IMG/VR virus record: IMGVR_UViG_3300033067_000817
Strand: one strand, 5' to 3'
DNA from: a virus
Length of the DNA stretch: 64,000 nucleotides
Within the stretch, counting starts at the first letter, position 1, and every line of letters begins with the position of its first letter. The position numbers were made by a program, and so were the translations under genes. Below the pieces are notes generated by a model. It searched no databases and was not told the DNA's origin. It saw only the letters and a list, made by a program, of their open reading frames with translations. Shown piece after piece: positions 12,810 through 28,503 of the stretch.

Positions 12810-12914
12810 GCCGGGTTGCATGGTGCGACCAAGTATGAGTGCAGAGGTTCGAGTCCTCTACTGCAGGTCAGGTGACACTCCAAAGGCCGGTGGTTCAAGT
12901 CCACAAGCCCGGCA
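12810..12914 (+). ncRNA. tRNA-like element E3 (105 nt)
   Basis: GCCGGGT/GCCCGGC acceptor closure, two T-loop-like hairpins (AGAGG-ttcgagt-CCTCT and GGTGG-ttcaagt-CCACA), no CCA. Confidence 0.3.
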
Positions 12915-13006
12915 CCTACAATAGAAGTCAACACAATTCAACAACGAGGTGTGGCATGAGCACAGTGCATTACCCCAGTGACCTGGGCGAGTTGACTTCT
13001 ATTTAT

Positions 13007-13158
13007 GCTCAGGAAGCATTGCTGGTGATGTATCAGAATGGTAACACGTTCACATGGAGTCCGGGCTCGGCCAACGTTATAACTTTGTAGTGTGTACAGC
13101 TGCAAAGTCGAACTTATATCCATTCGAAAAGGCAGTTCAAATCTGTCCCTGAGCTCCA
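13007..13158 (+). ncRNA. tRNA-like element E4 (152 nt)
   Basis: GCTCAGG/CCTGAGC perfect 7-bp closure, GGCAG-ttcaaat-CTGTC T-arm, T-CCA end, D-arm-like GCAT-tgctggtg-ATGT near the 5' end. Confidence 0.35.
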
Positions 13159-13294
13159 ATACACGTCCTTAGTCAGTATAATGTCAATACTTCTTTGAAA
13201 CTTGTGCTTTAGCAACTATGTTAACTAAGCTGAAGCCTAGTTGTAGATGAACTATCGCTAGCTATATCTAAAACGAAAAGTTATCAAAGAGATT

Positions 13295-13564
13295 GTGGTA
13301 AAAATCCACACTAGGGGCACCAATCCAATGACAAGCAAGAAAAGACTAAGTCCCACTAAGCGTCATAACCTTGCACTCACAGAAGATACTCAGCAAAAGA
13401 TTAGAGATATCATACTGACAATGGGTGCAGCAAACACGGAGGAAGCAGTCCGAAGAGCAATCAATCTATATCACATGATGATTAGGATTGATGAAAAGGA
13501 TGAGATCTTCGTACGGAAAGGCCTAAATGGTCATCCACTACGATTGAGATTTGTAATTACGTAG
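13295..13564 (+). CDS. small ribbon-helix-helix-like protein (tentative)
   Basis: 89 aa. The HNLALTEDTQQKIRDIILTMGAANTEEAVRRAINLY pattern is typical of CopG/Arc RHH. Confidence 0.3.
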   Translation: MVKIHTRGTNPMTSKKRLSPTKRHNLALTEDTQQKIRDIILTMGAANTEEAVRRAINLYHMMIRIDEKDEIFVRKGLNGHPLRLRFVIT

Positions 13565-13654
13565 AAGCTGCGATGACTGGTGGTATCGCGTAGGACTGTA
13601 AATCCTATCCCTTTGTGGTGAACATTGTGAGTTCGAATCTCACCTTCTACACCA
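13561..13654 (+). tRNA. tRNA-Tyr (anticodon GUA), class II with long variable arm
   Basis: GTAGAAG/CTTCTAC acceptor, TAGGA-ctgtaaa-TCCTA anticodon arm, about 19-nt variable arm, GTGAG-ttcgaat-CTCAC T-arm, A-CCA. Confidence 0.75.
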
Positions 13655-13670
13655 AAACAATGGTGTATAT

Positions 13671-14096
13671 ATGACAAACATGCTTATCAAAGCGATTGAA
13701 ATCGCTCTCTGCTTTCACGGACGACAGCTTGACAAAGCAGGCATGCCGTATATACTTCATCCATTGCACGTAATGGATAAAGTCAATGGTATCGAAGCAA
13801 AGATTGTTGCAGTGCTACATGACACAGTTGAAGACACAAACTTAACACTTGAAGCACTTGCCAATGCTGGTTTCGATGACACTATTGTTAACGCCATTGA
13901 TGCTATTTCCAAGCGCAAAGGTGAAACAAACGAGGACTACTGGACTCGTGTAAAGTCCAATAAACTTGCATTGCAAGTAAAACTAGTAGACATAGCTCAC
14001 AATTCATCAGAAGAACGGCTTGCAGCTCTTTCTGATGAGCAAGCTACTTATCTGCGTGATAAGTATGCAAAAGCAAAAGCATTTCTACTAGCATAG
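13671..14096 (+). CDS. RelA/SpoT-type HD-domain (p)ppGpp hydrolase (small alarmone hydrolase)
   Basis: FHGRQLDKAGMPYILHPLHV, AVLHDTVEDT and VKLVDIAHNS match the SpoT hydrolase H..HD..D core (HxGQxR..PYIxHPLxVA, LHDvvEDT, KLADRLHNMRT). Confidence 0.7.
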   Translation: MTNMLIKAIEIALCFHGRQLDKAGMPYILHPLHVMDKVNGIEAKIVAVLHDTVEDTNLTLEALANAGFDDTIVNAIDAISKRKGETNEDYWTRVKSNKLALQVKLVDIAHNSSEERLAALSDEQATYLRDKYAKAKAFLLA

Positions 14097-14100
14097 TACA

Positions 14101-14150
14101 CGGCGGTGTGGCGTAATGGTAGCCGCACGAGGCTACTTCCTACGATGATG
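14101..14150 (+). ncRNA. tRNA 5'-half-like fragment (possible disrupted tRNA)
   Basis: Acceptor-like start plus GCG-taatggtagc-CGC D-arm. No anticodon arm or T-arm can be completed. Abuts and overlaps the end of the HNH gene. Confidence 0.25.
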
Positions 14151-14624
14151 AGTGGGTGTTTGTGTATGACAATTAGGACACAAGAATCGTAGATTTGTAG
14201 CTTCATTATTCAGAAAATCACCATCAATATGGTCTATTTCTAATACAATAGGCTTACCATTCCATAAGTCATGTAGTCCACACCAATCACAAACATGACT
14301 TCTTCCTATAGAAAGAAGTGCACGGCGTAGTAATTTTGTTTTTTGCTTATGCTGATGAACTTCTCGCCTTACTAGAATTTCTTCTGGCTTAAGTTGAGGA
14401 CAAAAAACATTTTTATTCCAAGCACTGCCTTTAAAGTGTGATGTATCAATCTTAAATGATTGAATACATCGTTTAATATAAGTTTGCGTACCACCTGCTT
14501 GTTTAAGCCCTAAAGTACGCAAAACATTAGCATAGCTAGTTGAAGCTTTAACAGCTTGCTCCAGAACAAGACGGGTATATTTTATGGAAGACATAGTAAC
14601 CTCCATAGCTTTTCCGTCTACCAT
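14133..14624 (-). CDS. HNH homing endonuclease
   Basis: CDWCGLHDLWNGKPIVLEIDHIDGDFLNNEATNLRFLCPNCH is a classic HNH motif. Inserted between tRNA genes. Confidence 0.7.
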   Translation of the reverse strand: MVDGKAMEVTMSSIKYTRLVLEQAVKASTSYANVLRTLGLKQAGGTQTYIKRCIQSFKIDTSHFKGSAWNKNVFCPQLKPEEILVRREVHQHKQKTKLLRRALLSIGRSHVCDWCGLHDLWNGKPIVLEIDHIDGDFLNNEATNLRFLCPNCHTQTPTHHRRK

Positions 14625-14625
14625 G

Positions 14626-14701
14626 CCTAGGTAGCCAAATTGGTATAGGCAACACGCTTAGGACGTGTAATTTATGGGTTCGAATCCCATTCTAGGCACC
14701 A
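14626..14701 (+). tRNA. tRNA with anticodon UAG (Leu-type anticodon) but class I short variable arm
   Basis: GCCTAGG/TCTAGGC acceptor, GCC-aaattggtata-GGC D-arm, ACACG-cttagga-CGTGT anticodon arm, 5-nt variable loop, ATGGG-ttcgaat-CCCAT T-arm, A-CCA. Confidence 0.55.
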
Positions 14702-14709
14702 CCAACAAT

Positions 14710-15051
14710 ATGAAAGAAGTCAAAGACATGTACTGGCGTAACGTTGGCATTCTTGTGCTTGTGCTTGCTTCGATCATAGGTCTATCAGCATTTGCTGTTT
14801 TGAGATCTGGATCCACCAAGCATGAGATCAATACAGTAGCGGCCATGGTTACTAAGAACTACACTAGAATCAGCGCCGACACTGTGTCGTACATCGTGGA
14901 CACAGATCACGGTACGTTCCAGACATACGATCATACGTATGTTCAGGATTTGCAACCAGGACATAGGTATGTATTCTCATTGGAAGGAGAATATCATACG
15001 ACTATGTTCTCGCAATACTTCCCAATCATAGTGAGAGTAGTCCCACAATGA
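14710..15051 (+). CDS. secreted/membrane-anchored protein, paralog A
   Basis: Start moved to the ATG after the tRNA. N-terminal hydrophobic segment. C-terminal HRYVFSLEGEYHTTMFSQYFPIIVRVVPQ is paralogous to the next gene. Confidence 0.4.
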   Translation: MKEVKDMYWRNVGILVLVLASIIGLSAFAVLRSGSTKHEINTVAAMVTKNYTRISADTVSYIVDTDHGTFQTYDHTYVQDLQPGHRYVFSLEGEYHTTMFSQYFPIIVRVVPQ

Positions 15052-15410
15052 AAAAGGGATTCACACTAGTAGAGCTAATAGTAGTTATATGCTTGCTAGT
15101 CATATTCCTACTATTCTGCATTCCATATTGCAGTGGAGGTGTAGGTGGCCTTGGTAAACATGATACGGTAACCTGTATCGTGAAATCAAAGCATATTGAT
15201 ACCAGAGGTGGCAAAAGCCATTATATGGTAACAACAACTCAAGGCACATTCGAAGTTGACAATGGCCCAGCACTAGGAGTTTGGAATGCCGATGAGATAT
15301 ACGGCAATATCCTAGTAGAGCATAAGTATCTCTTTGAGATAGCTGGTGCCAAGTTCGTCAATCCAATAGCTCAGTATTATCCATATATAATACGGGCTGA
15401 GGAACAGTAG
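15048..15410 (+). CDS. prepilin-type (type IV pilin-like) N-terminal domain protein, paralog B
   Basis: MKKGFTLVELIVVICLL is a class III signal / N-methylation motif (GFTLVE). C-terminal HKYLFEIAGAKFVNPIAQYYPYIIRAEEQ is paralogous to the previous gene. Confidence 0.45.
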   Translation: MKKGFTLVELIVVICLLVIFLLFCIPYCSGGVGGLGKHDTVTCIVKSKHIDTRGGKSHYMVTTTQGTFEVDNGPALGVWNADEIYGNILVEHKYLFEIAGAKFVNPIAQYYPYIIRAEEQ

Positions 15411-15424
15411 CACACGGTAGAGTG

Positions 15425-15500
15425 GGGGTATAGGCAAATTGGCAAAGCCAGTTGAATTAAGATCAATTGTTTGCGAGTTCGACTCTCGCTGCCCCTACCA
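15425..15500 (+). tRNA. tRNA with anticodon UAA (Leu-type anticodon), short variable arm
   Basis: GGGGGTA/TGCCCCT acceptor (two G-U), GGC-aaattggcaaa-GCC D-arm, GTTGA-attaaga-TCAAT anticodon arm, GCGAG-ttcgact-CTCGC T-arm, A-CCA. Confidence 0.5.
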
Positions 15501-15852
15501 CTTCCGAACAATACTTCCAAAGATTGGAAGTAAACAGAACTCCTTGTAGCAATACAAGTGAGGCCTGCCACAAGCAGGAACTTAAGACTGAGTGTCTTGT
15601 GAGAGATTGATGTTCTAGAGCGTGGTTGCAAAAGGGAGTTTGGCACTCAACACCCTGTCAATTGCAACGCACATATACATGTCATGTAGGAATACATGAA
15701 ACGAGCTTAAAGTTTACTCGTTAAATAACAAACTATAGGCTAGGGCTTGGAGCAATGAAATCATGCCTATGATGGAGCTCCCTGTCCAACATTCTAACGC
15801 CGCCTGCCACTATGGACTCCCTTAGCAGGGCTTGTAAGGTTGAGAGCCTATT

Positions 15853-15884
15853 AGCTCAGTAACGAAAGTTACTGGGCTTTTTTA
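15853..15884 (+). terminator. intrinsic terminator
   Basis: CTCAGTAAC-gaaa-GTTACTGGG followed by CTTTTTT. Confidence 0.55.
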
Positions 15885-16172
15885 ATTGCATAGTGTTGGT
15901 GTTGCCAAAAACATGGCGATGCCATTTACGGGCTAGTAGATAAAATGCCTCAACACCATTCTACTAACTCGTATTTAGTACAAATAAGTTCAAGTAGCTG
16001 AGACGCAACGGTGTATTGCTAGTACATCAACTAGGCTGTTTGGGACAAGTCTAGCTAAAGAAGTGCGTAGTGTCTTGCCGATTGGCGCTAAGACAATGGA
16101 ATCAGGATATTTGTCACTAGCAAGTTTGACAATATCTCTTGGGTTCAAATCCCAAGCTACTCGTTTAAACAG

Positions 16173-16308
16173 ATCAGCAAGTTGTAAAGTAGGACGGAAC
16201 GGATCTGTATCTCATTCTACAGATAAAACTACTTGCCGAAACTAGCAGTGTAAGCCATTCATCGGGTTGCAGAGAGCACTGTTGTGGGTTTGAGTCCCAC
16301 TGCTGATC
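16173..16308 (+). ncRNA. tRNA-like element E5 (136 nt)
   Basis: ATCAGCA/TGCTGAT perfect 7-bp closure, GTGGG-tttgagt-CCCAC T-arm adjacent to the 3' strand, internal hairpin ATCTGTA/TACAGAT. Confidence 0.35.
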
Positions 16309-17006
16309 TTCTCTAACAAAAAGCGTTTTTTCTTTTGTGTCTTTTGTCTCGATCAAGAGTAGAGAGTGTGTGAAAACTGTCCAATGGCACTTAATCAATG
16401 CCTATAGCTTTTCATCTTACAGGAATGAAAAGCCGAAATTAAACGGCATACCTACCTATCAAGGTGAATACAGGTCTGATTAACCAACAAGATAGGACTC
16501 TCTATTCTCCCTACAAAGTCGTGGCAGCGACTATAAATAGCCTTTTAGGCTGCCAGCGCTTCTCCATACAAGGAGAAGGTGAGGGGTCATGAAGCGTCCT
16601 CTGTTACTCTTGGTGGAGTAACAAGATCCTTTTCATAGAGAGTCGAGTCGGGGGATTCCCCGGCTTTGGCATCACCACTCTGTGAAGTAATCGCTGCGAT
16701 AACGCAGATAACAGTTGCATCTTGCTAGTTCCATGCAACTGTTGATTCACTGACTCAAAATAGGAACTAGCACGTACACAAAGCTCAGCGATTTATATTG
16801 CTGGGCTTTATTCATTGCCGAGGTTGTAGGCCAAGCGCTCCAACTGTTCTTGAATATCAGTCAGGAGAGAGGATGTCTAGGGTGAAATTGCATACCTTAG
16901 ATACTGTTCTATACCACGACCATGCAATGCAATGTGCATGCGAGTATAGATTTTCAACAGAGACCATTGGTACAGTCTTCCATCAACCGGCCTTTTTTAG
17001 TACATT

Positions 17007-17083
17007 GGGACTTTAGCTCAGTTGGTTAGAGCGTGCCACTCATAATGGCTTGGTCGTCGGTTCAAGTCCGACAGGTCCCACCA
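17007..17083 (+). tRNA. tRNA-Met or Ile2 (anticodon CAU)
   Basis: GGGACTT/AGGTCCC acceptor, GCTC-agttggttaga-GAGC D-arm, TGCCA-ctcataa-TGGCT anticodon arm, GTCGG-ttcaagt-CCGAC T-arm, A-CCA. Confidence 0.85.
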
Positions 17084-18052: not shown

Positions 18053-19237
18053 ATGAAAGTCTACGCCGTCATTGGAGCTAATTTCGGGGACGAAGGGAAA
18101 GGGAAGATGGTTGACTACTTATGTAGCAAACATCCCAACGCACTCGTTATTAGATTCAATGGCGGCGCTCAAGCTGGGCATACTGTAAAGCTTAAAGACG
18201 GTAAGCGCCATGTCTTTCATCATTTTGGTAGCGGTACACTAAGAGGCCATGCAAGTCACTTTGCAGGACCTTGCATAGTAAATCCTTTAGTATTCCAAAA
18301 GGAATACAAAGAATTAGAACAAAAAGGAATTAATCCCAAGCTAACAGTAAGCTTCACATGTGAAGTGACATGTCCATACGATATGATATTCAATGTTGAA
18401 TTAAATAGAGCTAATGGACATGGTAGCTGTGGATTAGGTATTAGAGAATCCGTCATTAGAAGAAATATGGCTGTTGCTAATGACTCACCTAGTACCTTGC
18501 TATTTGGTCACTTAGCTAACAATGCTGAAATTGATAAATTCTTAAATTATTATAGAGGGATATATTTATATGAACGCCTAGAGCAAACTGGACTTAAGCC
18601 AAGTGACTCATTCTGGCATAAAATACATTCAACAACTATTGCAGATCAGTTTAAAGAAGCATGCAAGTTTATAGTAGATCATACTTATATTCGTGAACCA
18701 ACATCACTGATTAGAAATCACTTTCTAATGCATACTGATCCAGAGGTGATAATATACGAAGGTGCTCAAGGACTTCTACTAGATCAAAGAAATAAAGAGT
18801 TCTTTCCTCATTTAACTCCTAGTAACACAGGAATTAGAAATGTCCTTGATGACACGAGCTGGTATCATTTTGATGATGCAGAGTTCATATATACATCAAG
18901 AGCCTATACAACAAGACATGGCAATGGTCCATTCCCTTGGTATGTAGAAGGCTTATTATATCCTGATGATACCAATGTGCACAATGAACATCAAGGAACT
19001 ATGCGTTTTGGTACTCTAGACACAAATGCATTGTTTGAGCAAATTAATAAAGACGTTAGCAACGAAGTACTTCTTGACATTCCAGGCAAGAATATTAAGC
19101 CTTCAATAGTCACAGCAATCACATGTATGGATCAAGTCGACTTGGAGACAAAGGAAAGAATCCTTTCGGCTCGTGGGCTTGAGACTAAGTACATCTCGTA
19201 TGGGCCAACCGCAGAAGAAACAGTAGAAATCAAATGA
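18053..19237 (+). CDS. purA: adenylosuccinate synthetase homolog (PurA family; PurZ-type not excluded)
   Basis: GDEGKGK P-loop, GGAQAGHT, and HFGSGTL matching the HLIPSG block. Overall collinear with PurA. Confidence 0.8.
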   Translation: MKVYAVIGANFGDEGKGKMVDYLCSKHPNALVIRFNGGAQAGHTVKLKDGKRHVFHHFGSGTLRGHASHFAGPCIVNPLVFQKEYKELEQKGINPKLTVSFTCEVTCPYDMIFNVELNRANGHGSCGLGIRESVIRRNMAVANDSPSTLLFGHLANNAEIDKFLNYYRGIYLYERLEQTGLKPSDSFWHKIHSTTIADQFKEACKFIVDHTYIREPTSLIRNHFLMHTDPEVIIYEGAQGLLLDQRNKEFFPHLTPSNTGIRNVLDDTSWYHFDDAEFIYTSRAYTTRHGNGPFPWYVEGLLYPDDTNVHNEHQGTMRFGTLDTNALFEQINKDVSNEVLLDIPGKNIKPSIVTAITCMDQVDLETKERILSARGLETKYISYGPTAEETVEIK

Positions 19238-20379
19238 CATCAACACAACTTCAGATAGTAAGTAAAGTAGACTATGGAAATATCTTCATGGTCCAGGCCC
19301 TAGAAAAGATTTCGGGTCATAATATTCGTTCAATAAGTGTTGTTAGCAAAGCAAAACTCTTTGCTTGGCTCAGAAAGAAAAAACAAGAATATCAGGCTCT
19401 AGACTTTAGAGCTATTGGTGCTGGTCTACGATATATCTTCAGAGATTACACTATTGTCTATAATGAGATGGACAATGTTGATAACATAGATGACATACAG
19501 GATTTGCTTGAAGGTAACTATGACGATCCTGACGAAAACTGCCAGAGTGATAAATCCAATACTAGGATTTCTATATACTCTGCATCTGTGCATAACTTAG
19601 CTGAGATAACTAAAGAAATCAGAGAAGCGGCACCCGTCAATCCTGCTATCAATACTGTTAGAATATCTCAGTATGCATTAGTAGGAGGAAGAATTGATTC
19701 CAAGACCATATCTTGGGAAATCTCCGATAGACGCACTGTTGTTCATGAACTCTATCCTGAAATAGATATCGAAAAACTGTGCAAAGCATTCATGAAGTCT
19801 AACGACTCGATACTTATCCTATCGGGAGAACCCGGGACTGGCAAGACCACTTTCGTCAAGTATCTTGTCAATCAGTGGCATAAGGACAATCTGGGCAACA
19901 GCTTTATCTATGCAAACAACCTAGATGTCATCAACAAGAGTGAGTTTTGGACCACGATTAGTGGTGAAAATGACTCGCTCTTGATCCTCGATGACATCAG
20001 CTATGACATGATGAGACCACTAGGAGAAGACAAGACGAATATATTCGTCAATAGCCTTCTAGCGTATTGTGATGGTGTAGTGGATGAGAACGCTAAAGTC
20101 ATCATCACAACCAACCAAACAACTGAGAATATCGACCCTGCTTTGCTCAGAGCAGGTAGAGCATTCGATGCTATCCATTTGACATACCTCAATGGAGAAG
20201 AAGCTAGGGCTATTTGGAGAGACATCTTCAACAGAACTGATGAGCTTCCTGCTCAAGCTTATCAGCCCAATGGCGATGTCAAACAATGCGACTTGATGTC
20301 GATACTGGCTCAGAAGATCAACCCGGCTGTGGACAAGACAAGCTACAGAAAGAAACGTACTCTCGTTTCTGTTAGCTAA
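19234..20379 (+). CDS. AAA+/P-loop ATPase
   Basis: Walker A ILSGEPGTGKTTFVKYL and Walker B LLILDDIS. Confidence 0.6.
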   Translation: MTSTQLQIVSKVDYGNIFMVQALEKISGHNIRSISVVSKAKLFAWLRKKKQEYQALDFRAIGAGLRYIFRDYTIVYNEMDNVDNIDDIQDLLEGNYDDPDENCQSDKSNTRISIYSASVHNLAEITKEIREAAPVNPAINTVRISQYALVGGRIDSKTISWEISDRRTVVHELYPEIDIEKLCKAFMKSNDSILILSGEPGTGKTTFVKYLVNQWHKDNLGNSFIYANNLDVINKSEFWTTISGENDSLLILDDISYDMMRPLGEDKTNIFVNSLLAYCDGVVDENAKVIITTNQTTENIDPALLRAGRAFDAIHLTYLNGEEARAIWRDIFNRTDELPAQAYQPNGDVKQCDLMSILAQKINPAVDKTSYRKKRTLVSVS

Positions 20380-20633: not shown

Positions 20634-21041
20634 ATGAAAACAAGTCTTAAAGCTCATTTTGCAACCATCTGGGAAGAAGTCAAAGACATCTTCAAGAACA
20701 TGTTCAGCAACTTCAAGCGAGCATGGAAGATGTGGAGAAATGGCTCTACCACTGAACAGGTAGTAGACCTGGCATTCGCTGGTCTAATTGCTTGGTTCTT
20801 CCCAAACATCGCTGTTGGTATTGCAGCAGCGAACTTCGTTGATGAATCCAACACTGTGTGGTTGGTCATCACTGGTGTGCTATCCTTTGCACTACTAGAA
20901 CTGATCGCAGTAAGCTTCATGGAAATCATCGTCATCTTGGCGATGATTCAATTGGCTTACCGTAGTCGAGAGTATGTGAGGAAGTACAATGCGCGTATCA
21001 ACGGCCTCAAAGCTGAAATGCGCACTGCTAGCGCTACTTGA
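20634..21041 (+). CDS. putative membrane protein
   Basis: Hydrophobic helices (LIAWFFPNIAVGIAAANFV, VWLVITGVLSFALLELIAVSFMEIIVILAMI). Confidence 0.3.
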   Translation: MKTSLKAHFATIWEEVKDIFKNMFSNFKRAWKMWRNGSTTEQVVDLAFAGLIAWFFPNIAVGIAAANFVDESNTVWLVITGVLSFALLELIAVSFMEIIVILAMIQLAYRSREYVRKYNARINGLKAEMRTASAT

Positions 21042-22587
21042 TACCTTAGCTAGTACAGAGTTTCAATGTTTTGTCATAGGTAAAGTTCATAAGCAAGCAA
21101 TTAAATGCGTAACTAGAACTATACCAGAGATAGATCATGATAGCTTTGTGTTAGTTAGAGCTACCAAGAAGAAAGCCAAGCCTGCTCAGCCTGTCTATGA
21201 ACAGTCTAGAGCCCAATCAATGCCACCAGAGTGGCAGGGACACCAGACTACTGAACGAATCATAGTCTACCACGAGGCCTATAAGGCCGGTCCCCACGTA
21301 GAGGCTTACATTGTACTCAACGGTATAGCCTACAACATTGGTGTCAAGCGGCTACGTCCAGAGCATATTCAGAACATCAAGAAACACAAAGATGGGACTC
21401 TAACAAATGGGACCAAAGACTATCTGGTGGGCGTTCTTAGGGACGAATTCCGTGGTGGAGCTTGGCTCGGACAAACTACCGATCATACTCCCGAAGAAGC
21501 AAAAACCGAGTGGACTGCCCATCTATACAATAGTGGTTACGGAAGTGGAGAATCTAGACACGTCCTCGACACAAGGACTGTGGATGTCTTCAAGAGCGGT
21601 AACACAATTGAATGGCGGGATTCCCTGCTCAATCCACACCAGACCGCTTACGTTTTCAGGCTCATGTCCCCCACTGAAAGGCGACCTAAGCCAATCCTTA
21701 AACTAGGCTTCAAAGAGCATCAAGACATTGAAGTCAAGGATAGGCTGCATCTTAAGCCTCACATCGGAACTCACGAATTCAGTAGGTTCCGAAAGCTAGT
21801 AGGCGAAGATGGCATCGTTACAGTTAAACATGACGGGGCTTCTGCATACTTTGAGATCAATCAGAAAGGCATGAGCTTCTGGTCTCCAAGAGTATCAAAA
21901 GAAACCGGCCGTAGGATTAACTATAACGCTAAAGTCAAAGATCTCATTCATCATACCTCTGATAAGAGAATCACTGGTATGGGTGAGCTTGAGTACTATG
22001 ACAGAAGAAACAATCGTCTACTCAAAGCACATGAAGTAGGCGGTATCCTCAATAGCAATGGCCCAATGCCAAGCTACATTGAGCCTCAGTTCATCATTTA
22101 CAGGATCGACAAGGTAGACCGAAAGGATATTCATGCAGTTGACTATCGGCAAAATCTTGATCATATCAGGGATACTGTTTATAGTATACAGGATCCTCGG
22201 ATACAAGCCCCGATTCTCGTTGACTGGCATGATGCTGAAGAAGTTGCAAAGAGCAGGGAGGGCCTAGTAGGTGTCCCTAGCGGTCTATCTATTCTCGATG
22301 GCCGAAAGTATAAGCCCAGAGTGGATTTATACGATTGGACTGTTGAGACTATCGGACTCGAAGACGGCCCAAAGGGTGGCATCTCGGGGGTTGTATGGTT
22401 CACAAATGAACAGGGTGACCGATATAAGATCGGTGCATCTTCAATGGGGTCCAGAGATGAAGTAAAACACATCATGGATCATCCAGAGCAATACATAGGT
22501 AAGGTAGCCAAAGTAAGTTCATATTCAGGTCACGAAGGTAGAGCAGCAAAATTCGAACAGTGGCATCTAGACAAAGGAGTCAATTGA
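20989..22587 (+). CDS. nucleotidyltransferase-superfamily ligase-like protein (possible RNA ligase)
   Basis: Candidate motif I VTVKHDGAS, motif III GMGELEYY, motif IV SREGLVGV and motif V DGRKYKPR with ligase-like spacing. Start uncertain because of overlap with the upstream ORF. Confidence 0.4.
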   Translation: MRVSTASKLKCALLALLDTLASTEFQCFVIGKVHKQAIKCVTRTIPEIDHDSFVLVRATKKKAKPAQPVYEQSRAQSMPPEWQGHQTTERIIVYHEAYKAGPHVEAYIVLNGIAYNIGVKRLRPEHIQNIKKHKDGTLTNGTKDYLVGVLRDEFRGGAWLGQTTDHTPEEAKTEWTAHLYNSGYGSGESRHVLDTRTVDVFKSGNTIEWRDSLLNPHQTAYVFRLMSPTERRPKPILKLGFKEHQDIEVKDRLHLKPHIGTHEFSRFRKLVGEDGIVTVKHDGASAYFEINQKGMSFWSPRVSKETGRRINYNAKVKDLIHHTSDKRITGMGELEYYDRRNNRLLKAHEVGGILNSNGPMPSYIEPQFIIYRIDKVDRKDIHAVDYRQNLDHIRDTVYSIQDPRIQAPILVDWHDAEEVAKSREGLVGVPSGLSILDGRKYKPRVDLYDWTVETIGLEDGPKGGISGVVWFTNEQGDRYKIGASSMGSRDEVKHIMDHPEQYIGKVAKVSSYSGHEGRAAKFEQWHLDKGVN

Positions 22588-23325: not shown

Positions 23326-23943
23326 ATGACTGATACTGAACTAATCAAAAGTCTAGTCCCTGTCATACCTTCACCTAAGATGAAGATTGATGCCAAGGTT
23401 AGCAGAACTGACATTGTTAACATAGTTCATGGTAAGCTCGTTGCAAAAGCTGAAGTTGCAAGAGAATTAGCACACAAAGAGTACAAAGAATATACCGAGA
23501 AAATTGAAGAAGAAATACCCAAAATTCTTCAAAAGGTATTCAAAAGATCTGTTTTAGCTTTAAAAGCCTTAGGTCTCAAAGGTGAAGCTATATATAATAA
23601 CAACAGTGACTATGAAGGTGGTATATCGATGACCTTCAACGCTCACGTAGCAAAAAAAGGCGAAACAAGAAGAGCTGCACACATATCTCTATCTAGACAA
23701 GAGGTTATTAGCCTAGCTCCCGAGTTAGGTGAGATGTATAAAGCTCAAGAAAAGCTGTATAGAGCTACTGTTAAAGCAGACGAAATCTTTAGCAAGACTA
23801 TGCACAATAAGAGCAACATCAACGTGGCGCTCGCAGAATCTATACTCAATAGCTCTGACCAAGGCAAGCAAATGCTTGAACAGCTCGATCAAATCTGTGA
23901 TCAGTTTGACGATAAGCTGAACAACAGACAACTCAAACAATGA
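23326..23943 (+). CDS. hypothetical protein
   Basis: 205-aa ORF, Lys/Glu-rich, helical-looking. Overlaps neighbouring genes by 4-8 nt. Confidence 0.35.
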   Translation: MTDTELIKSLVPVIPSPKMKIDAKVSRTDIVNIVHGKLVAKAEVARELAHKEYKEYTEKIEEEIPKILQKVFKRSVLALKALGLKGEAIYNNNSDYEGGISMTFNAHVAKKGETRRAAHISLSRQEVISLAPELGEMYKAQEKLYRATVKADEIFSKTMHNKSNINVALAESILNSSDQGKQMLEQLDQICDQFDDKLNNRQLKQ

Positions 23944-24494
23944 ACATTTGGTTTACTGCAGACTTGCACTTAGGTCATACTAACATATTGAAGCATCAGC
24001 CCAATAGGGCGTTTGCTTCTATAGAAGAGCATGACCAGCATATAGTAGACCATTGGAATAGCCACGTAGACGATCGAGATCAAGTTTACTTCTTAGGTGA
24101 CTTAACTATGAAGCCTAATGGCGATGATGCAAAGACCTTGCTTGATCGTCTCAAAGGTAACATATATGTCATCAGAGGTAATCATGATTACGCTCTTAGA
24201 GAAGCTTTTGACAATAACCTACTGTCTTCAAGAATACAAGACCTAGGTTACTATCATAAGCTTAGACACAATAAGAAGAAGATTATATTGTGTCACTTTC
24301 CATTCTGGTCATGGGATGGAATGAGAATAAGACCAGAGCGGCCAGAAAATGAGCCTAAGAAAGATGGCTCTTGGCATCTACATGGTCACAGTCATGGCAA
24401 GTCACCTACGATCTTTGACAGATTAGATGTAGGCTGGGACTGTCATAACAAGATACTGCATATAGACGACATTTGGAAAATTCTGGATCAGTAA
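23940..24494 (+). CDS. metallophosphoesterase
   Basis: MNIWFTADLHLGH, YFLGDLT and IRGNHDY motifs. Confidence 0.6.
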   Translation: MNIWFTADLHLGHTNILKHQPNRAFASIEEHDQHIVDHWNSHVDDRDQVYFLGDLTMKPNGDDAKTLLDRLKGNIYVIRGNHDYALREAFDNNLLSSRIQDLGYYHKLRHNKKKIILCHFPFWSWDGMRIRPERPENEPKKDGSWHLHGHSHGKSPTIFDRLDVGWDCHNKILHIDDIWKILDQ

Positions 24495-24550
24495 TGATCT
24501 TTTGTTGATTTTCCTTTCGTTTTTTGCTAATAATCTGTGTTGATTACATA

Positions 24551-24650
24551 TTCAATCCAGGACGTCGTGAGTTCGAGTCTCACCGAGAGCTTGCTCTTGT
24601 AACTCAGTTGGTAGAGTGCCCGGCCAAACCAAGTCAACACATTTGCACAA
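24551..24650 (+). ncRNA. permuted tRNA-like module Y-a (Y-RNA/YrlA-like candidate)
   Basis: GTGAG-ttcgagt-CTCAC T-arm, then acceptor-like hairpin CGAGAG-cttg-CTCTTG, then D-arm ACTC-agttggta-GAGT. The anticodon-stem position is left open. Bracketed by motif copies. Confidence 0.45.
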
Positions 24651-24851
24651 TTAATCTATACTGATTACATTTTTGACATAAAATAGCTGTCTCAAAAACA
24701 GCTTTAAAATCAGTATCTTTAACCCCTGGGTAGTATAACTCTTAATACCTCAGTTTGTGATTTCGCATTTCCCCCCACAGGAACAAGCAACCACAAATTG
24801 TGATGCTGGTGAAAATCCAGCCCTGGGGACCACCTCGCACAACAGAACAAA

Positions 24852-25073
24852 ATGTTTACTCTTAAAAAGAAACAACCGAAGTCTGTAGATAGTATTATTG
24901 CTCAATTTGCCACTGTGGTCAATGAGCTAGAACAAGCAAGCTTACATCATGATTCTCAATATGAAGCTATTGCTACTAGAATACAAGACCTAGAGCGTGC
25001 AAAGACTGGACATGAAGAAGAAGGCAAGCGTGCCAGATCTATCATGCAGAAAGTTAAAGCACTTATCAGCTAA
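24852..25073 (+). CDS. small hypothetical protein (73 aa)
   Basis: Helical, Lys/Glu-rich ORF embedded in the ncRNA array. Coding status uncertain. Confidence 0.3.
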   Translation: MFTLKKKQPKSVDSIIAQFATVVNELEQASLHHDSQYEAIATRIQDLERAKTGHEEEGKRARSIMQKVKALIS

Positions 25074-25160
25074 GGAAGATTAACCCTAATTGGTAAGGGC
25101 CTGGCCTAGAAAGTCAGCGGCTTCACGGCCTTGAGGGTTCGAGTCCTTCATCTTCCACCA
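25074..25160 (+). tRNA. class II tRNA (Ser/Leu-type long variable arm; anticodon read as AGA, uncertain)
   Basis: GGAAGAT/ATCTTCC acceptor, CCC-taattggtaa-GGG D-arm, CTGGC-ctagaaa-GTCAG anticodon arm, about 15-nt variable arm, GAGGG-ttcgagt-CCTTC T-arm, A-CCA. Confidence 0.5.
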
Positions 25161-25170
25161 ATCAGATCAT

Positions 25171-25247
25171 GCTACAATAGCTCAGCTAGATAGAGCGCTG
25201 GCTTGAAACACCAGAGGTCGGAGGTTTAATTCCTTCTTGTAGCACCA
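25171..25247 (+). tRNA. tRNA-Phe (anticodon GAA)
   Basis: GCTACAA/TTGTAGC acceptor, TA-GCTC-agctagata-GAGC D-arm, anticodon loop ttGAAac, GGAGG-tttaatt-CCTTC T-arm, A-CCA. Confidence 0.75.
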
Positions 25248-25272
25248 AAGCATTAATCTGTATTGATTACAT

Positions 25273-25440
25273 TATCACTTGGAGATCGTGATGTAGGTTC
25301 GATTCCTACACTCTATTAATAGAGTTCGTCTAACGGTAGGACCCGTAAAAAATCAATACTCTTTTAGCACAATCCTGAAAGACCCGGTTCAGCCGTGGTT
25401 GCCACAAACGGTGAAAAAAGCTAGTGGCCAGGATCCAATT
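25273..25440 (+). ncRNA. permuted tRNA-like module Y-b (Y-RNA/YrlA-like candidate)
   Basis: ATCAC/GTGAT hairpin, GTAGG-ttcgatt-CCTAC T-arm, ACTCTA-ttaa-TAGAGT closed acceptor-like helix, GTC-taacggtag-GAC D-arm, then about 100 nt with further hairpins. Between motif copies 3 and 4. Confidence 0.45.
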
Positions 25441-25460
25441 TTAATCTACGTTGAATACAT

Positions 25461-25563
25461 TCACTATTAATGAAGAGAACCGGGTTCGATTCCCGGAGGA
25501 TCCACCATTTAGGGGTCCTTAGCTCAATGGTAGAGCGTAAAAACTTCAACGTTTTTCGTACAA
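25461..25563 (+). ncRNA. permuted tRNA-like module Y-c
   Basis: CCGGG-ttcgatt-CCCGG T-arm, AGGATCC-accatttag-GGGTCCT acceptor-like helix (loop contains ACCA), GCTC-aatggta-GAGC D-arm, AAAAAC-ttcaac-GTTTTT hairpin. Between motif copies 4 and 5. Confidence 0.4.
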
Positions 25564-25855
25564 TTAATCTATGTTGATTACATTTTTCTGCAAAAAAAGG
25601 CCCCGGGGTTCGACTCCCTGGTTTATCCGGTTGAGGCTCAAACAATCAACATTCTTTTGAACAATTAATCTGCATTGATTACATCCCTTATTTTTTTGGA
25701 AAATCCAATCAATGCTCTTAACGTACAAGTAATCTGTAAAGACTACATGGTTAAGTTGGTTCTAATCCAACACGGGTATTGCAAAATATCCGGTTAGGTG
25801 AAATTCCTAACGAAAGTCTTTACAATTCATCTTTAAATCTGTTTGGATACAAGTA

Positions 25856-27520
25856 ATGAGAAAACTAAACACTTCACGAGTCATAGGTCAAAAGGGCGAT
25901 CTTCAGTTTGACGGTTCAGGTAATCACACTATCGACCTAGTCGCAAATGGTGCTGACAAGCTAATCCAAAAGAACGACAAATCAGTTGTACTACGTTATA
26001 AGAAACTAGTACAAGACTCTTATCAACAAGACCCGGCTCTCACCCTGAAGATTGGTAGATACTTCAGAGATGATGAGAATGGTCAGAACCTAAAAGAGCA
26101 GCCGCTTCTGATGCTAGCTGTGCTTGACGGCCAGATCACTGATGAAGAAATTCAATCAGTTCTGACTGTTCATCCGCTAAGAACTCAAGATGGCGCTAGA
26201 CCTCTGGATGAAACACCTCTGCTTGAGCTTGTCAAGATATTGGCATGGCACAAGTATCTGAACAGCAAAGATTCAAAGCTTTCCCCCGATATGTTATCGG
26301 TATGGGCTAAGATCTTCAAGGTCAAAGCTGATGAAAACATTGACAACCTACTTGCTGAAGTCATCAAGCTAAAGAACACTCGTGTTCAGTATGACACAGA
26401 AAACAAGCTACAAGTTGGTATTGTTGATGTTATTGGTATTATTAGGAACCGTGCTGATTTTCCTAAGGCTGTCAAAGACGAATACGCGGGCTACCTTTAT
26501 CCTCTCAAGAGAGGTCAAAACTATAAAGCACGCCCTGTTAGCGAAGTAGCCAAGAAGTGGAACAAGTTCTTCAAGGGTGAACTATCTGAGAATGAAGTTC
26601 CCCAAGGTATTGACTTCCTTAAGGCTCTCAATAGCAAGAACAAGGCCGCTTGCCTTAAGCTCCTTCAAGAGGGTAAGATTAGCAATGCACAGCTTAAGAT
26701 TAACCTTAAGAACATTGTTGAGCTAGTTGGCGAAGATGAAGTTACCAAGCTAATCACCAAGCGCAACTGGAATCTATTCCCTCACGACATTCTTGCAATG
26801 GGTATGGCATTCTATCAAGGAACTGCTCATACTGGCAAGTCTGCCGCTAAAGCAAACATGGCAGAGATCATGTTTGGTAAGCTCCTAGCTGAGTACAAGA
26901 CCAAAGTGAAGAACTCGGTCCTGTTCTTTGCTGACGTTTCTGGTAGCATGTGCCAGCCCTTGTCGAAGAAGAGTACGATCAATCAAGACGACTTTGCCTT
27001 CTTCATGAGCTTCTTTGCTGCCAATGTTAGTGACCATAAGGTCCTAGCACAGTTTGGTTCTACTGCACACCTTATGGAGTGCTCTAAGAATCCGACGTTA
27101 AAAGAATTCATTGAGACACCCAGAGCAGGCGACTGCAGTACAAATATGTACGGGTGTGTCGTTGAAGTTGCAAACTACTTCAAGAAGGTTAAGAAGCAAG
27201 CCCCCAAGGTCTTAGCCTTCATAAGTGATATGCAATTTGATAGCTGCGCACGTCCTCACTATTCCAGCAATAAGTCTAATACGGTATCAGCAGCATTGCT
27301 CTACTATGAACAGACTACTGGTGTCAAACCACAATTGGTTTTCTGGAATGTCGCAGCATCAACCGTTCCTGCTACAGAGCAAGACGGCGTTCTTTTGTTA
27401 TCTGGCTTCAGTGCCAATACCGCAGACATCGTCTTCGGTATAATCAATACATCGACGGAAGAAAACCGCCAGATGTCTACTCAAGACCTCCTGAATAGTA
27501 TTAACAATACTTATCAGTAA
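25856..27520 (+). CDS. rsr: Ro60/TROVE-domain protein with C-terminal vWA (Rsr-like)
   Basis: EQPLLMLAVLDGQ parallels Ro60 QEPMLFALAICSQ. C-terminal blocks VLFFADVSGSM, AGDCSTNM, VLAFISDMQF, QLVFWNVAAS and LLLSGFSANTADIV are collinear with the Ro60 vWA/MIDAS region (LLAVDVSASM, AGGTDCSLPM, VFIVFTDNETF, LIVCGM, LDMCGFDTGALDVI). Confidence 0.75.
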   Translation: MRKLNTSRVIGQKGDLQFDGSGNHTIDLVANGADKLIQKNDKSVVLRYKKLVQDSYQQDPALTLKIGRYFRDDENGQNLKEQPLLMLAVLDGQITDEEIQSVLTVHPLRTQDGARPLDETPLLELVKILAWHKYLNSKDSKLSPDMLSVWAKIFKVKADENIDNLLAEVIKLKNTRVQYDTENKLQVGIVDVIGIIRNRADFPKAVKDEYAGYLYPLKRGQNYKARPVSEVAKKWNKFFKGELSENEVPQGIDFLKALNSKNKAACLKLLQEGKISNAQLKINLKNIVELVGEDEVTKLITKRNWNLFPHDILAMGMAFYQGTAHTGKSAAKANMAEIMFGKLLAEYKTKVKNSVLFFADVSGSMCQPLSKKSTINQDDFAFFMSFFAANVSDHKVLAQFGSTAHLMECSKNPTLKEFIETPRAGDCSTNMYGCVVEVANYFKKVKKQAPKVLAFISDMQFDSCARPHYSSNKSNTVSAALLYYEQTTGVKPQLVFWNVAASTVPATEQDGVLLLSGFSANTADIVFGIINTSTEENRQMSTQDLLNSINNTYQ

Positions 27521-27548
27521 TCTGAAGTAGAGCTCGTTTGCCCCTTAG

Positions 27549-27581
27549 GGAGTCAAGACCACAATCTTGACTCCTTTTTTT
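27549..27581 (+). terminator. intrinsic terminator after the Ro60 gene
   Basis: GGAGTCAAG-accacaat-CTTGACTCC followed by TTTTTTT. Confidence 0.65.
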
Positions 27582-27663
27582 AAATGAGCTGGCTAATGTA
27601 GTCTGTTTGTTGCATTGTCCATTTCTTTTTTTGACTCTTTCCGTAACATACTTAGGAACAAAC

Positions 27664-28503
27664 ATGGAACTTGTTAAAGACACTCCGTACAAAAAGCAAT
27701 TTAATCCGCTTCACCCAATGTGCCCGTTCGAGCGAGAGCTCAAGGATGGACACTATATCTCCACTAACAAGTGGAAGCCCGGCTTCGAATGGATCGAACA
27801 AGATCCTACTACTGTCGCATTCGAGATCCCGAAAGGGACGGCTTGTGGTTATGACATTCTACAAAATGAGAAGAATGGCAGCAAAGCTAGAATGATGATG
27901 GCCTTCAGCCGTAGAATGTACGGATTGGAGCCGGGATCTCTTCTATCGGCTATCACAATGTGGAGCCAAGACAAGTTCTTTTCCCTTCCTAATAGGAACG
28001 AAGTCGGCACGCACTTCGGTATTGCTACGAGAGACAGATTCGGGTATAATAGATTCTATACTTTGGAAGCCCTTAAGTCCAAAGTTCGTTGTACTCAGTT
28101 CAATCACCAAAAGAAAGCTGATGGGACTCCGTATCCTAAGGATCCTACTGCTATTTCTATATGGCTAAAGGAAGACTTAAGAAGCAGAATGGACGAAGCT
28201 TTTTCTGACTTCTCAAACGCTAAAAACAATTATCCCTATGGGATAACTACTGTCTCTGAACAAGATCGCCCTTATGGCATCATGTTCACAAACAAAGAAG
28301 GTAGATACGCTAGAGTCACTTGTGACATGTTCGATTGGTTCTATAACCCTGAGCCTACTCTCTCGGTTCTCGAACTAAACAAGAAGGAAGAACGAAGAGA
28401 AGCCAGAAGAGCTAGATGGAATTCTTTGAGTGTCGAAGAGCAAGAAAGAATCAAAGCCGAATCCAAGCGAAGATCCGCAGAAGCGATCACAGCTCCGAGA
28501 TAA
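27664..28503 (+). CDS. hypothetical protein with basic C-terminus
   Basis: Start set at MELVKD (a plausible RBS precedes it). C-terminal KKEERREARRARW..KRRSAEA. Confidence 0.4.
   Translation: MELVKDTPYKKQFNPLHPMCPFERELKDGHYISTNKWKPGFEWIEQDPTTVAFEIPKGTACGYDILQNEKNGSKARMMMAFSRRMYGLEPGSLLSAITMWSQDKFFSLPNRNEVGTHFGIATRDRFGYNRFYTLEALKSKVRCTQFNHQKKADGTPYPKDPTAISIWLKEDLRSRMDEAFSDFSNAKNNYPYGITTVSEQDRPYGIMFTNKEGRYARVTCDMFDWFYNPEPTLSVLELNKKEERREARRARWNSLSVEEQERIKAESKRRSAEAITAPR

What the first reader, a model, noticed from the sequence alone, without database searches (positions are those of the whole stretch)
24495..27590. Ro60/TROVE gene preceded by an array of circularly permuted tRNA-like modules: candidate phage Y-RNA/Ro60 system
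The ORF at 25856-27520 is collinear with Ro60 in both the TROVE region and the C-terminal vWA/MIDAS region. Immediately upstream, three units (24551-24650, 25273-25440, 25461-25563) share an unusual order. Each has a canonical T-arm (5-bp stem, TTCGAKT loop), then a 6-7-bp acceptor-like helix closed by a short loop, then a canonical D-arm. The anticodon-stem position is left open. That is a tRNA-like domain permuted relative to a real tRNA. Bacterial YrlA-type Y RNAs bound by Ro60/Rsr have been reported with the same architecture (T-arm and D-arm mimic, closed acceptor stem). Every unit is bracketed by a conserved 20-nt element TTAATCTNNNNTGATTACAT. There are at least 6 good copies, each with a TAATC/GATTA hairpin and a freely varying 6-nt loop. 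Two bona fide tRNAs (class II and Phe) sit in the same array, and the whole locus ends in a clean terminator at 27549-27581. The repeated motif could be a per-unit promoter for the phage RNAP, an RNase processing site, or a protein-binding hairpin.
Basis: partly seen in the sequence, partly recalled or inferred. Interest (0 to 1): 0.9.

Follow-up and report, generated by a model that had tools for sequence, protein, structure and literature searches.

The report
Phage Ro60-like protein with seven Y-RNAs
A large phage encodes a distant structural relative of the Ro60 RNA-binding ring protein, and just upstream of it seven small RNAs that share one conserved "handle" but carry different inner modules, three of them tRNA mimics; this points to a previously unrecognised branch of the Ro60/Y-RNA system.

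The parts
24532..24650 (+). Unit U1, a Y-like RNA with a tRNA-like core. AAUCU 24532-24536; terminal helix 24537-24545 with 24632-24640; ACAU 24546-24549; T-arm 24567-24583; closed acceptor-like hairpin 24584-24599; D-arm 24602-24617; tail AUUUGCACAA.
   Evidence: Rfam YrlA 42.1 bits, full length. R1 95.3 bits. Helix and coordinates.
24653..24726 (+). Unit U2, a short Y-like RNA. Handle plus one internal hairpin (24685-24703). Terminal helix 24658-24666 with 24708-24716.
   Evidence: Fold z-score -3.36. R1 37.9 bits. Perfect distal complement.
24723..24833 (+). tRNA-like RNA with a 9-bp extended anticodon-type arm, ending in ACCA. It lacks the handle, and whether it belongs to the system is uncertain.
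   Evidence: Rfam tRNA 26.9 bits, below the gathering score of 29. Fold.
24852..25073 (+). Small ORF (73 aa) of unknown function, inside the RNA array.
   Evidence: phrog_2380, E 1.4e-14, unknown function.
25074..25160 (+). tRNA-Ser(AGA), class II.
   Evidence: ARAGORN. Rfam tRNA 34.1 bits.
25171..25247 (+). tRNA-Phe(GAA). Its 3' end lies only 6 nt before the TAATCT of U3.
   Evidence: ARAGORN. Rfam tRNA 62 bits.
25255..25369 (+). Unit U3, a Y-like RNA with a tRNA-like core. Helix 25260-25268 with 25351-25359; V hairpin 25274-25292; T-arm 25293-25309; acceptor-like hairpin 25310-25325; D-arm 25328-25342.
   Evidence: Fold z-score -2.88. R1 90.8 bits. Coordinates.
25372..25434 (+). Structured element without the handle, lying between U3 and U4. 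It may be a terminator or a processing hairpin.
   Evidence: Fold (z-score -1.35, weak). Comparable hairpins precede TAATCT in L003, L005 and L006.
25443..25562 (+). Unit U4, a Y-like RNA with a tRNA-like core. Helix 25448-25455 with 25545-25552; T-arm 25480-25496; acceptor-like hairpin 25497-25519, whose loop begins ACCA directly after the 3' acceptor strand; D-arm 25522-25536.
   Evidence: Rfam YrlA 36.9 bits, plus a partial hit to permuted tmRNA. Fold z-score -3.42. R1 99.3 bits.
25566..25662 (+). Unit U5. Handle plus a T-arm-like hairpin only (25603-25621). Helix 25571-25579 with 25644-25652.
   Evidence: R1 51.8 bits..
25667..25725 (+). Unit U6, a minimal unit with the handle only. Helix 25672-25680 with 25707-25715.
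   Evidence: R1 35.1 bits..
25731..25833 (+). Unit U7. Variant handle (GUAAUCU ... GACUACAU) closing three hairpins (25755-25771, 25773-25792, 25794-25810). Helix 25736-25744 with 25815-25823.
   Evidence: Fold z-score -5.50. R1 29.3 bits. The C-G compensation at helix position 8 is.
25856..27520 (+). Ro60-like protein (554 aa): a helical (HEAT-like) N-terminal region plus a C-terminal vWA domain with a MIDAS motif (D360-x-S362-x-S364, T429, D458).
27547..27586 (+). Intrinsic terminator-like hairpin (12-bp stem) followed by a T-run, closing the locus.

Best explanation
The locus encodes a divergent Ro60-like ring protein and seven cognate Y-RNA-like small RNAs.

Each RNA brings its own 5' and 3' ends together in a 9-bp helix. 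The helix is flanked by invariant single-stranded AAUCU (5') and ACAU (just inside the helix), by an A-rich opposite strand, and by a U-rich/GUACAA tail. This shared handle is the most likely docking site for the Ro60-like protein.

The interior of each RNA is a swappable module:
- three complete tRNA-elbow mimics (T-arm, closed acceptor stem, D-arm; the anticodon-stem position opens into the handle);
- one T-arm only;
- one three-hairpin module;
- two minimal RNAs.

By analogy with bacterial Rsr/YrlA/PNPase, these modules would tether or gate one protein towards different partners or substrates. The likely setting is surveillance, turnover or repair of structured RNAs, especially tRNAs, during infection.

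Shown by computation: the anatomy, the covariation, the protein fold, the gene-RNA linkage, and the handle-clade correspondence. Inferred: expression as discrete RNAs, protein binding to the handle, and the biological role.
For: Protein:
- Its profile finds TROVE/Ro60 chains in the PDB (2e-7 to 5e-3).
- The AF2 model (pLDDT 82.5) matches Ro60 structures over about 560 aligned columns. The Foldseek top 10 are all Ro60/TROVE at E 2e-11 to 7e-8, and the next hit is at 1e-2.
- The MIDAS residues are invariant.

RNAs:
- There are 7 units in the window, all on the gene's strand.
- In the terminal helix, 96.7% of cells are paired, 7 of 9 pairs show double changes, and 0 of 500 shuffles reach the observed values.
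- Pair 25-47 was not used to pick the units, and it also co-varies.
- In 240 unrelated contigs, only 7 of 268 chance copies of the motif (2.6%) have a distal complement, against 17 of 17 here.
- For the tRNA-like units, RNAalifold recovers the closing helix, the T-arm and the acceptor hairpin, and 17 of 20 pairs show compensatory changes.
- Rfam YrlA gives full-length matches at 42.1 and 36.9 bits.

Linkage:
- All 8 loci of the protein clade for which DNA was available carry at least one unit directly upstream of the gene.
- In 80 distant DUF2828/DUF7788 viral loci, 141 helix-ACAGCAA units lie on the gene strand against 7 on the other strand, and 54 of 80 loci have at least one.
- 64% of units that lie outside the gene are within 500 nt of it, a zone that holds 15% of the flanking DNA.
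- Several of these units carry permuted T/acceptor/D cores.
- Handle A (AAUCU-helix-ACAU) is exclusive to the close clade (21 on + and 1 on -, none on the gene strand of distant loci). Handle B (helix-ACAGCAA) is exclusive to the distant clade (146 on + and 8 on -).

Precedent: phage Ro60 proteins with adjacent Y-like RNAs are known (PMC4201824). Phage phiLo Ro60 binds two upstream Yrl RNAs and host PNPase (PMC12135203).
Against: - There is no expression or binding data of any kind.
- There is no Pfam TROVE hit and no NCBIfam hit.
- Rfam YrlA scores are below the gathering score.
- The canonical GNCGAAN0-1G Ro-binding motif is absent.
- The model's pTM is only 0.59, and global TM-scores to Ro60 are about 0.45, so closure of the ring is not established.
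- The KVP40 homologue has no such RNA nearby, so the association is not universal.
- Seven of the nine helix pairs were used to pick the units, so their pairing statistics are partly circular. The independent controls are and pair 25-47.
Confidence: 0.75

Rival explanations
1. The RNAs work independently of the neighbouring protein. They would be phage tRNA mimics or decoys, for example for host tRNA-targeting nucleases, modification enzymes or RNase P. They sit next to the gene only because both live in tRNA islands.
For: DUF2828/DUF7788 genes are embedded in dense tRNA arrays: 174 Rfam hits, almost all tRNAs, in 17 loci, and the same in KP2025. The units in the window are interleaved with tRNA-Ser, tRNA-Phe and a tRNA-like RNA.
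Against: Four of the seven units are not full tRNA mimics yet keep the handle. The other tRNA cluster of the window (12.4-17.1 kb) has no units. Units concentrate within 500 nt of the gene. Handle type switches with protein clade, as expected for a co-evolving protein-RNA pair.
Confidence: 0.12
2. The conserved 20-nt element is a signal rather than a protein handle. It would be a short promoter for the phage's own RNA polymerase, or an endonuclease processing site, that punctuates a polycistronic tRNA/sRNA transcript. On this view the helix merely defines RNA ends.
For: (T)AATCT also sits 3-25 nt upstream of the start codon of the Ro-like gene in all six loci examined. Hairpins or terminators precede it in several loci. 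The phage encodes a multisubunit RNA polymerase. Only 6 nt separate tRNA-Phe from the TAATCT of U3, which favours co-transcription followed by processing.
Against: TAATCT is not enriched in the window (27 on + and 26 on -, against 24 expected) and does not precede other genes or the other tRNAs. Nothing upstream of TAATCT is conserved. A signal role for AAUCU does not explain the invariant ACAU or the co-varying helix. This rival is compatible with the best explanation for the AAUCU part and does not exclude it.
Confidence: 0.08
3. The tRNA-like units are circularly permuted tRNA genes, or tRNA-gene debris from recombination in a tRNA island. They would either be matured into ordinary tRNAs or be non-functional.
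For: The order T-arm, acceptor, D-arm is that of a permuted tRNA. In U4 the acceptor loop starts with ACCA, as at a tRNA 3' end, and it partly matches the permuted tmRNA model.
Against: No anticodon loop can form, because the anticodon-stem position opens into the 5'/3' terminal helix. ARAGORN finds no tRNA, tmRNA or permuted tmRNA in the units. Compensatory changes in the helix, T-arm and acceptor hairpin, across loci whose proteins are only 40-45% identical, argue against decay.
Confidence: 0.03

Closest known systems
Bacterial and phage Rsr (Ro60) with YrlA/YrlB Y RNAs (Chen et al. 2014, PMC4201824; Rfam RF02553)
   Same: The small RNAs lie on the same strand, next to a Ro60-fold gene. The 5' and 3' ends pair into a terminal helix with a conserved motif just inside the 5' strand. 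The permuted tRNA-like domain has a T-arm, a closed acceptor stem and a D-arm. Smaller partner RNAs without the tRNA domain (like YrlB) are also present.
   Different: The protein is not recognised by the Pfam TROVE model. The RNAs score 37-42 bits against a gathering score of 69. The 5' motif is YUGAWUACAU preceded by an invariant AAUCU, instead of GNCGAAN0-1G. There are seven paralogous RNAs in tandem rather than one or two. The second helix of the YrlA consensus is absent.
Thermus phage phiLo Ro60 with Yrl1/Yrl2 (PMC12135203; PDB 9KOP, 9L5Y)
   Different: Sequence identity is only 14-16%. phiLo Ro60 is a TROVE-annotated protein with CGAA-motif RNAs, and it has two RNAs rather than seven. 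No tRNA-like modules are reported in the passages read.
DUF2828 (PF11443) + DUF7788 (PF25043) proteins of phage tRNA islands (PHROG 850 'RNA-binding protein'; for example Klebsiella phage KP2025 XCO36286.1 and KVP40.0300)
   Same: They are the nearest sequence relatives beyond the 9-member clade and share the vWA/MIDAS domain. They are flanked by same-strand small RNAs that have a terminal helix plus a conserved single-stranded motif, and some of these carry permuted tRNA-like cores.
   Different: The window's protein lacks a detectable DUF2828 N-domain hit and is about 70 aa longer. Its RNAs use the handle AAUCU-helix-ACAU instead of helix-ACAGCAA. I found no paper in the searched library that links DUF2828/DUF7788 to Y RNAs.
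Permuted (two-piece) tmRNA genes and circularly permuted tRNA genes
   Same: The T-arm and 3' acceptor strand lie upstream of the 5' acceptor strand. U4 has ACCA after the 3' acceptor strand.
   Different: There is no tag reading frame, no pseudoknots and no anticodon loop. ARAGORN finds none.

Membership tests
Ro60/TROVE protein family | Sequence match to the TROVE domain model (Pfam PF05731) | tested here: not met
   Pfam scan at E up to 1 gives DUF7788 (1e-11) and a weak vWA_Ro60 match (0.0021, below cutoff), with no TROVE hit. NCBIfam gives no hit.
Ro60/TROVE protein family | Helical HEAT-repeat ring followed by a vWA domain, collinear with solved Ro60 structures | tested here: met
Ro60/TROVE protein family | MIDAS motif (DxSxS ... 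T ... D) in the vWA domain | tested here: met
   D360, S362, S364, T429 and D458 are invariant across 45 aligned relatives.
Ro60/TROVE protein family | Binds Y RNA and misfolded RNA | not testable with these tools
   Needs EMSA, RIP or a structure of the complex.
YrlA-type Y RNA (Rfam RF02553; Chen et al. 2014) | Score at or above the Rfam gathering threshold (69 bits) | tested here: not met
   U1 scores 42.1 bits and U4 scores 36.9 bits, both full length. There was no hit in the gathering-threshold scan.
YrlA-type Y RNA (Rfam RF02553; Chen et al. 2014) | GNCGAAN0-1G motif near the 5' end | tested here: not met
   The positionally equivalent sequence is (G/A)YRYUGAUUACAU, or UGAAUACAU in U4. 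The motif definition is from PMC4201824.
YrlA-type Y RNA (Rfam RF02553; Chen et al. 2014) | Internal tRNA-like domain in the order T-arm, closed acceptor stem, D-arm | tested here: met
   Met for U1, U3 and U4. Not met for U2, U5, U6 and U7.
YrlA-type Y RNA (Rfam RF02553; Chen et al. 2014) | Encoded within 4 kb of, and on the same strand as, a Ro60 orthologue | tested here: met
   All seven units lie 23-1324 nt upstream of the gene on the + strand. The caveat is that the protein is Ro60-like by fold and not an orthologue by sequence.
DUF2828/DUF7788 phage 'RNA-binding protein' family (PHROG 850) | Match to DUF7788 and to PHROG 850 over most of the length | tested here: met
   DUF7788 at 1e-11 over residues 358-536. 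PHROG 850 at 3.7e-29 over residues 12-527.
DUF2828/DUF7788 phage 'RNA-binding protein' family (PHROG 850) | N-terminal DUF2828 (PF11443) domain | tested here: not met
   There is no PF11443 hit for the window protein or its 9 close homologues, whereas all distant relatives have one.

The most novel reading that the evidence does not exclude
DUF2828/DUF7788-type proteins would form a second, so far unrecognised branch of Ro60-like RNPs. The branch includes this divergent clade, is widespread in phage tRNA islands, and is present in cultured Klebsiella phages. Each clade has its own co-evolving class of Y-like RNAs: the handle AAUCU-helix-ACAU here, and helix-ACAGCAA elsewhere. The phage arrays, seven RNAs here and up to about ten in other loci, would act as a toolkit of adaptor RNAs. 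The adaptors would direct one ring protein to several different RNA substrates or partner enzymes during infection, possibly to protect or recycle phage tRNAs when the host attacks them.
Probability: 0.45. Interest if true: 0.8.

Novelty: new variant of a known kind. Interest (0 to 1): 0.66.

Why it matters
Ro60/Y-RNA particles are conserved from bacteria to humans, yet their functions remain poorly defined. In bacteria they are known with one or two Y RNAs per locus.

This locus gives a natural experiment: one Ro60-fold protein and seven RNAs that keep an identical handle but exchange their effector module. That is what the "Y RNA as modular tether or gate" model predicts.

The locus also connects a large family of unknown function (DUF2828/DUF7788) to Ro60 biology. 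That family is common in phage tRNA islands and is annotated at best as "RNA-binding protein".

It supplies two simple sequence signatures for finding its RNA partners, which Rfam-based annotation currently misses or mis-calls as giant tRNAs.

Cultured phages such as Klebsiella phage KP2025 would make the idea testable.

Tried and rejected
Rejected. It is broken in U4, U7 and the L001 units, while the long-range helix is compensated in each case.
- **TAATCT as a general phage promoter.** Rejected for the window. There are 27 copies on + and 26 on -, against 24 expected, and none lies before other genes or the 12-17 kb tRNA cluster.
- **Sigma-70 promoter scan.** Not enriched: 9 found against a mean of 6.1 in shuffles.
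- **Units as ordinary, intron-containing or permuted tRNAs or tmRNAs.** ARAGORN finds none. With introns allowed and a lowered threshold it gives only a spurious "tRNA-Cys" that bridges U4 and U5.
- **Close relatives in cultured phages.** The DNA search found only tRNA-Phe matches. The protein search found only 25-31% identity over the vWA domain.
- **IMG/VR scan for the close clade.** It returned only distant DUF2828/DUF7788 relatives.
- **Pattern scans of viral and metagenome collections with TAATCTNNNNTGNTTACAT.** I reused them as a negative control.
- **KVP40 homologue.** No Y-like RNA within 5 kb.
- **The 532-aa ORF with a KxDG motif as an RNA ligase.** No support from Pfam, PHROGs, NCBIfam or PDB sequences.
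- **Literature.** The supplement of Chen et al. 2014 and two reviews could not be read.


Full report
**What is in the sequence.** The window is from a large phage. It carries seven ARAGORN-called tRNA genes, a pistol ribozyme and an RNA polymerase beta'-like ORF, and it has no close relative among deposited phages. The flagged ORF (25856-27520, 554 aa) is real and ends before a clean terminator at 27547-27576. Two real tRNAs lie upstream, class II Ser(AGA) and Phe(GAA). The 20-nt motif occurs seven times, all on the + strand, within 24530-25748, and no shuffle reaches the observed count.

**The protein.**
- Pfam finds no TROVE domain. It finds only DUF7788 (1e-11, C-terminal vWA region) and a weak vWA_Ro60 match. 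NCBIfam finds nothing. PHROG 850, annotated "RNA-binding protein", matches residues 12-527 at 3.7e-29.
- A search of 5.8 billion protein clusters gives only nine close homologues (39-44% identity, all from metagenomes). Beyond those come distant DUF2828+DUF7788 proteins.
- A profile of 45 relatives finds, as its best matches among PDB sequences, the phage phiLo Ro60/TROVE protein (2e-7), human Ro60 (1e-3) and Xenopus Ro60 (5e-3).
- The AlphaFold2 model (pLDDT 82.5) matches Ro60 structures over about 560 aligned columns. The Foldseek top 10 are all Ro60/TROVE, E 2e-11 to 7e-8, and the next hit is at 1e-2.
- The MIDAS residues D360, S362, S364, T429 and D458 are invariant.
- The protein is therefore Ro60-like by fold and by remote homology. 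By sequence criteria it is not a member of the TROVE family.

**The RNAs.**
- A script found a perfect 7/7 Watson-Crick complement for all 7 window copies. It found the same for 9 of the 10 copies in five homologous loci fetched through the close protein homologues. The tenth (L005 5577) was confirmed by reading the sequence and by a second script.
- Folding extends the helix to 9 bp.
- On a 17-unit alignment, 96.7% of cells are paired, 7 of 9 pairs show changes on both sides, and no shuffle or slid register comes close.
- Seven of those pairs were used to select the 3' strand, so I sought independent controls. Pair 25-47 was not selected for, and it co-varies (UA, AU, CG, UG). Among 268 chance copies of the motif in 240 unrelated contigs, only 7 (2.6%) have such a complement.
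- The local TAATC/GATTA hairpin is broken in U4, U7 and the L001 units, exactly where the long-range helix is compensated. The hairpin model is rejected.

**Anatomy of a unit.**
- Each unit reads: invariant (U)AAUCU, 9-bp helix 5' strand, invariant ACAU, a variable interior, an A-rich stretch, the helix 3' strand, and a tail close to UUUUGUACAA.
- U1, U3 and U4 contain a T-arm with a UUCGAKU loop, a closed acceptor-like hairpin, and a D-arm with the GG dinucleotide.
- Across eight such units from four loci, RNAalifold recovers the closing helix, the T-arm and the acceptor hairpin, and 17 of 20 pairs show compensatory changes.
- Rfam's YrlA model aligns U1 and U4 end to end at 42.1 and 36.9 bits, below the gathering score of 69. 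It places the handle opposite the YrlA 5' motif region.
- U5 keeps only a T-arm. U7 has three hairpins. U2 and U6 are minimal.
- The covariance model R1, built from the tRNA-like units, finds all seven units and nothing else in the 64 kb window. The next hit scores 21 bits.
- ARAGORN does not turn any unit into a tRNA or tmRNA.

**Linkage to the gene.**
- All eight loci of the protein clade for which DNA was available carry one to seven units directly upstream of the gene. (T)AATCT also precedes the gene's start codon in the six loci first examined.
- TAATCT alone is not enriched in the window. The other tRNA cluster lacks the units. So this is not a general promoter or a general feature of tRNA islands.

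**A wider pattern.**
- In 80 IMG/VR loci that encode distant DUF2828+DUF7788 proteins, R1 hits fall 39 of 39 on the gene's strand. The alignments show real permuted T/acceptor/D cores.
- Those RNAs share a different handle: a terminal helix (often AGAC.../...GUCU) followed by ACAGCAA.
- A script counts 141 such units on the gene strand against 7 on the opposite strand, in 54 of 80 loci. Of these, 21 have a T-loop and 120 are short.
- 64% of the units that lie outside the gene are within 500 nt of it, a zone that holds 15% of the flanking DNA.
- Rfam YrlA again matches below threshold (36.9 and 32.3 bits).
- These genes sit in dense tRNA arrays.
- In cultured Klebsiella phage KP2025, two unannotated units follow the "DUF2828 protein" gene. 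KVP40 has none nearby.
- Handle A is confined to the close clade and handle B to the distant one. That is the pattern expected if protein and RNA handle co-evolve.

**Mechanism.**
- Shown by computation: a Ro60-fold protein gene is tightly linked to a family of small structured RNAs with a conserved terminal handle and exchangeable interiors.
- Inferred, by analogy with Rsr/YrlA/PNPase and with phiLo Ro60/Yrl/PNPase (PMC4201824, PMC12135203): the protein binds the handle. The interiors tether or gate it towards partners or substrates, the tRNA-elbow mimics being suited to enzymes that recognise tRNA. The system would then act in RNA surveillance or repair during infection.
- A metallophosphoesterase gene lies directly upstream. 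The tRNA-island setting fits an RNA-end-healing or tRNA-centred role, but this is only context.
- It is unresolved whether the units are separate transcripts or are cut from a precursor shared with the tRNAs. The 6-nt gap between tRNA-Phe and the TAATCT of U3 favours processing.

**Comparison and novelty.**
- Phage Ro60 genes with adjacent Y-like RNAs are established (22 phages in PMC4201824; phiLo in PMC12135203; a TROVE protein with a tRNA-like partner in some jumbo phages in PMC7824862).
- The system here fails the sequence-level membership tests for both TROVE and YrlA, although it shares their architecture.
- New elements are the DUF2828/DUF7788-related protein lineage, the distinct handle motifs, and the multi-member modular arrays.
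- I found no paper in the searchable library that links DUF2828 or DUF7788 to Y RNAs. That library is incomplete.
- Verdict: a new variant of a known kind. Confidence is about 0.75 for the RNP reading and lower for any specific biological role.

Noticed in passing
window 16517-16584 (+): A pistol ribozyme scores 55.1 bits against a gathering score of 34.5. It lies inside a second tRNA cluster (Lys, Tyr, Leu, Leu, Met at 12460-17083) that has none of the Y-like units.
   Followed up: no
window 18053-19237 (+): This ORF is an adenylosuccinate-synthetase homologue (Pfam 2.6e-40). In phages such genes can be PurZ, which marks DNA containing 2-aminoadenine. I did not examine this.
   Followed up: no
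window 19234-20379 (+); L003 3948-5048, L004 1554-2591, L005 2197-3282, L006 135-1196: An AAA/nSTAND3-type ATPase gene is syntenic upstream of the Ro60-like gene in the window and in four related loci. In L004 it lies directly before the RNA array. Any functional link to the vWA/MIDAS domain is untested.
   Followed up: partly
window 20989-22587 (+): A 532-aa ORF carries a VKHDGAS sequence that resembles ligase motif I (KxDG). It has no hit in Pfam, PHROGs, NCBIfam or PDB sequences.
   Followed up: partly
window 23940-24494 (+); L005 225-884: A calcineurin-like metallophosphoesterase gene (phrog_547, 1.6e-46) lies immediately upstream of the RNA array, and one is also present in a related locus. 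It could be an RNA-end-healing enzyme, but this is speculative.
   Followed up: partly
window 24723-24833 (+); L006 5722-5840; L003 5566-5678: These are structured, tRNA-like RNAs that end in ACCA but have greatly enlarged middle regions. They lack the handle, and their role is unknown.
   Followed up: partly
window 25074-25160 (+): tRNA-Ser has the anticodon AGA (A34), which is unusual for bacteria. It scores only 34.1 bits on Rfam tRNA.
   Followed up: no
window 25372-25434 (+): A structured element without the handle lies between U3 and U4. Comparable GC-rich hairpins precede TAATCT in L003, L005 and L006.
   Followed up: partly
L005 4920-5560: A stretch of about 640 nt with no called gene lies between a short Y-like unit and a tRNA-like unit. 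No Rfam family matches it at the gathering threshold.
   Followed up: partly
L017 7577-8173 (+): A ROOL RNA (207.7 bits) lies in the tRNA island next to a DUF2828/DUF7788 gene.
   Followed up: no
L001 5638-5778; L089 3110-3541 (Klebsiella phage KP2025, record 140087-140518): tRNA finders stitch false giant tRNAs across these loci. Rfam calls a 141-nt 'tRNA' running from the D-arm of one Y-like unit to the T-arm of the next. The KP2025 record annotates a 432-nt 'tRNA-Arg' that overlaps the start of the DUF2828 CDS.
   Followed up: partly
L001 8100-9005, L005 3567-4871, L330 2738-3592: A Band_7/SPFH-domain gene neighbours the Ro60-like gene in three related loci. The ORF in the equivalent window position (27664-28503) has no family hit.
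   Followed up: no
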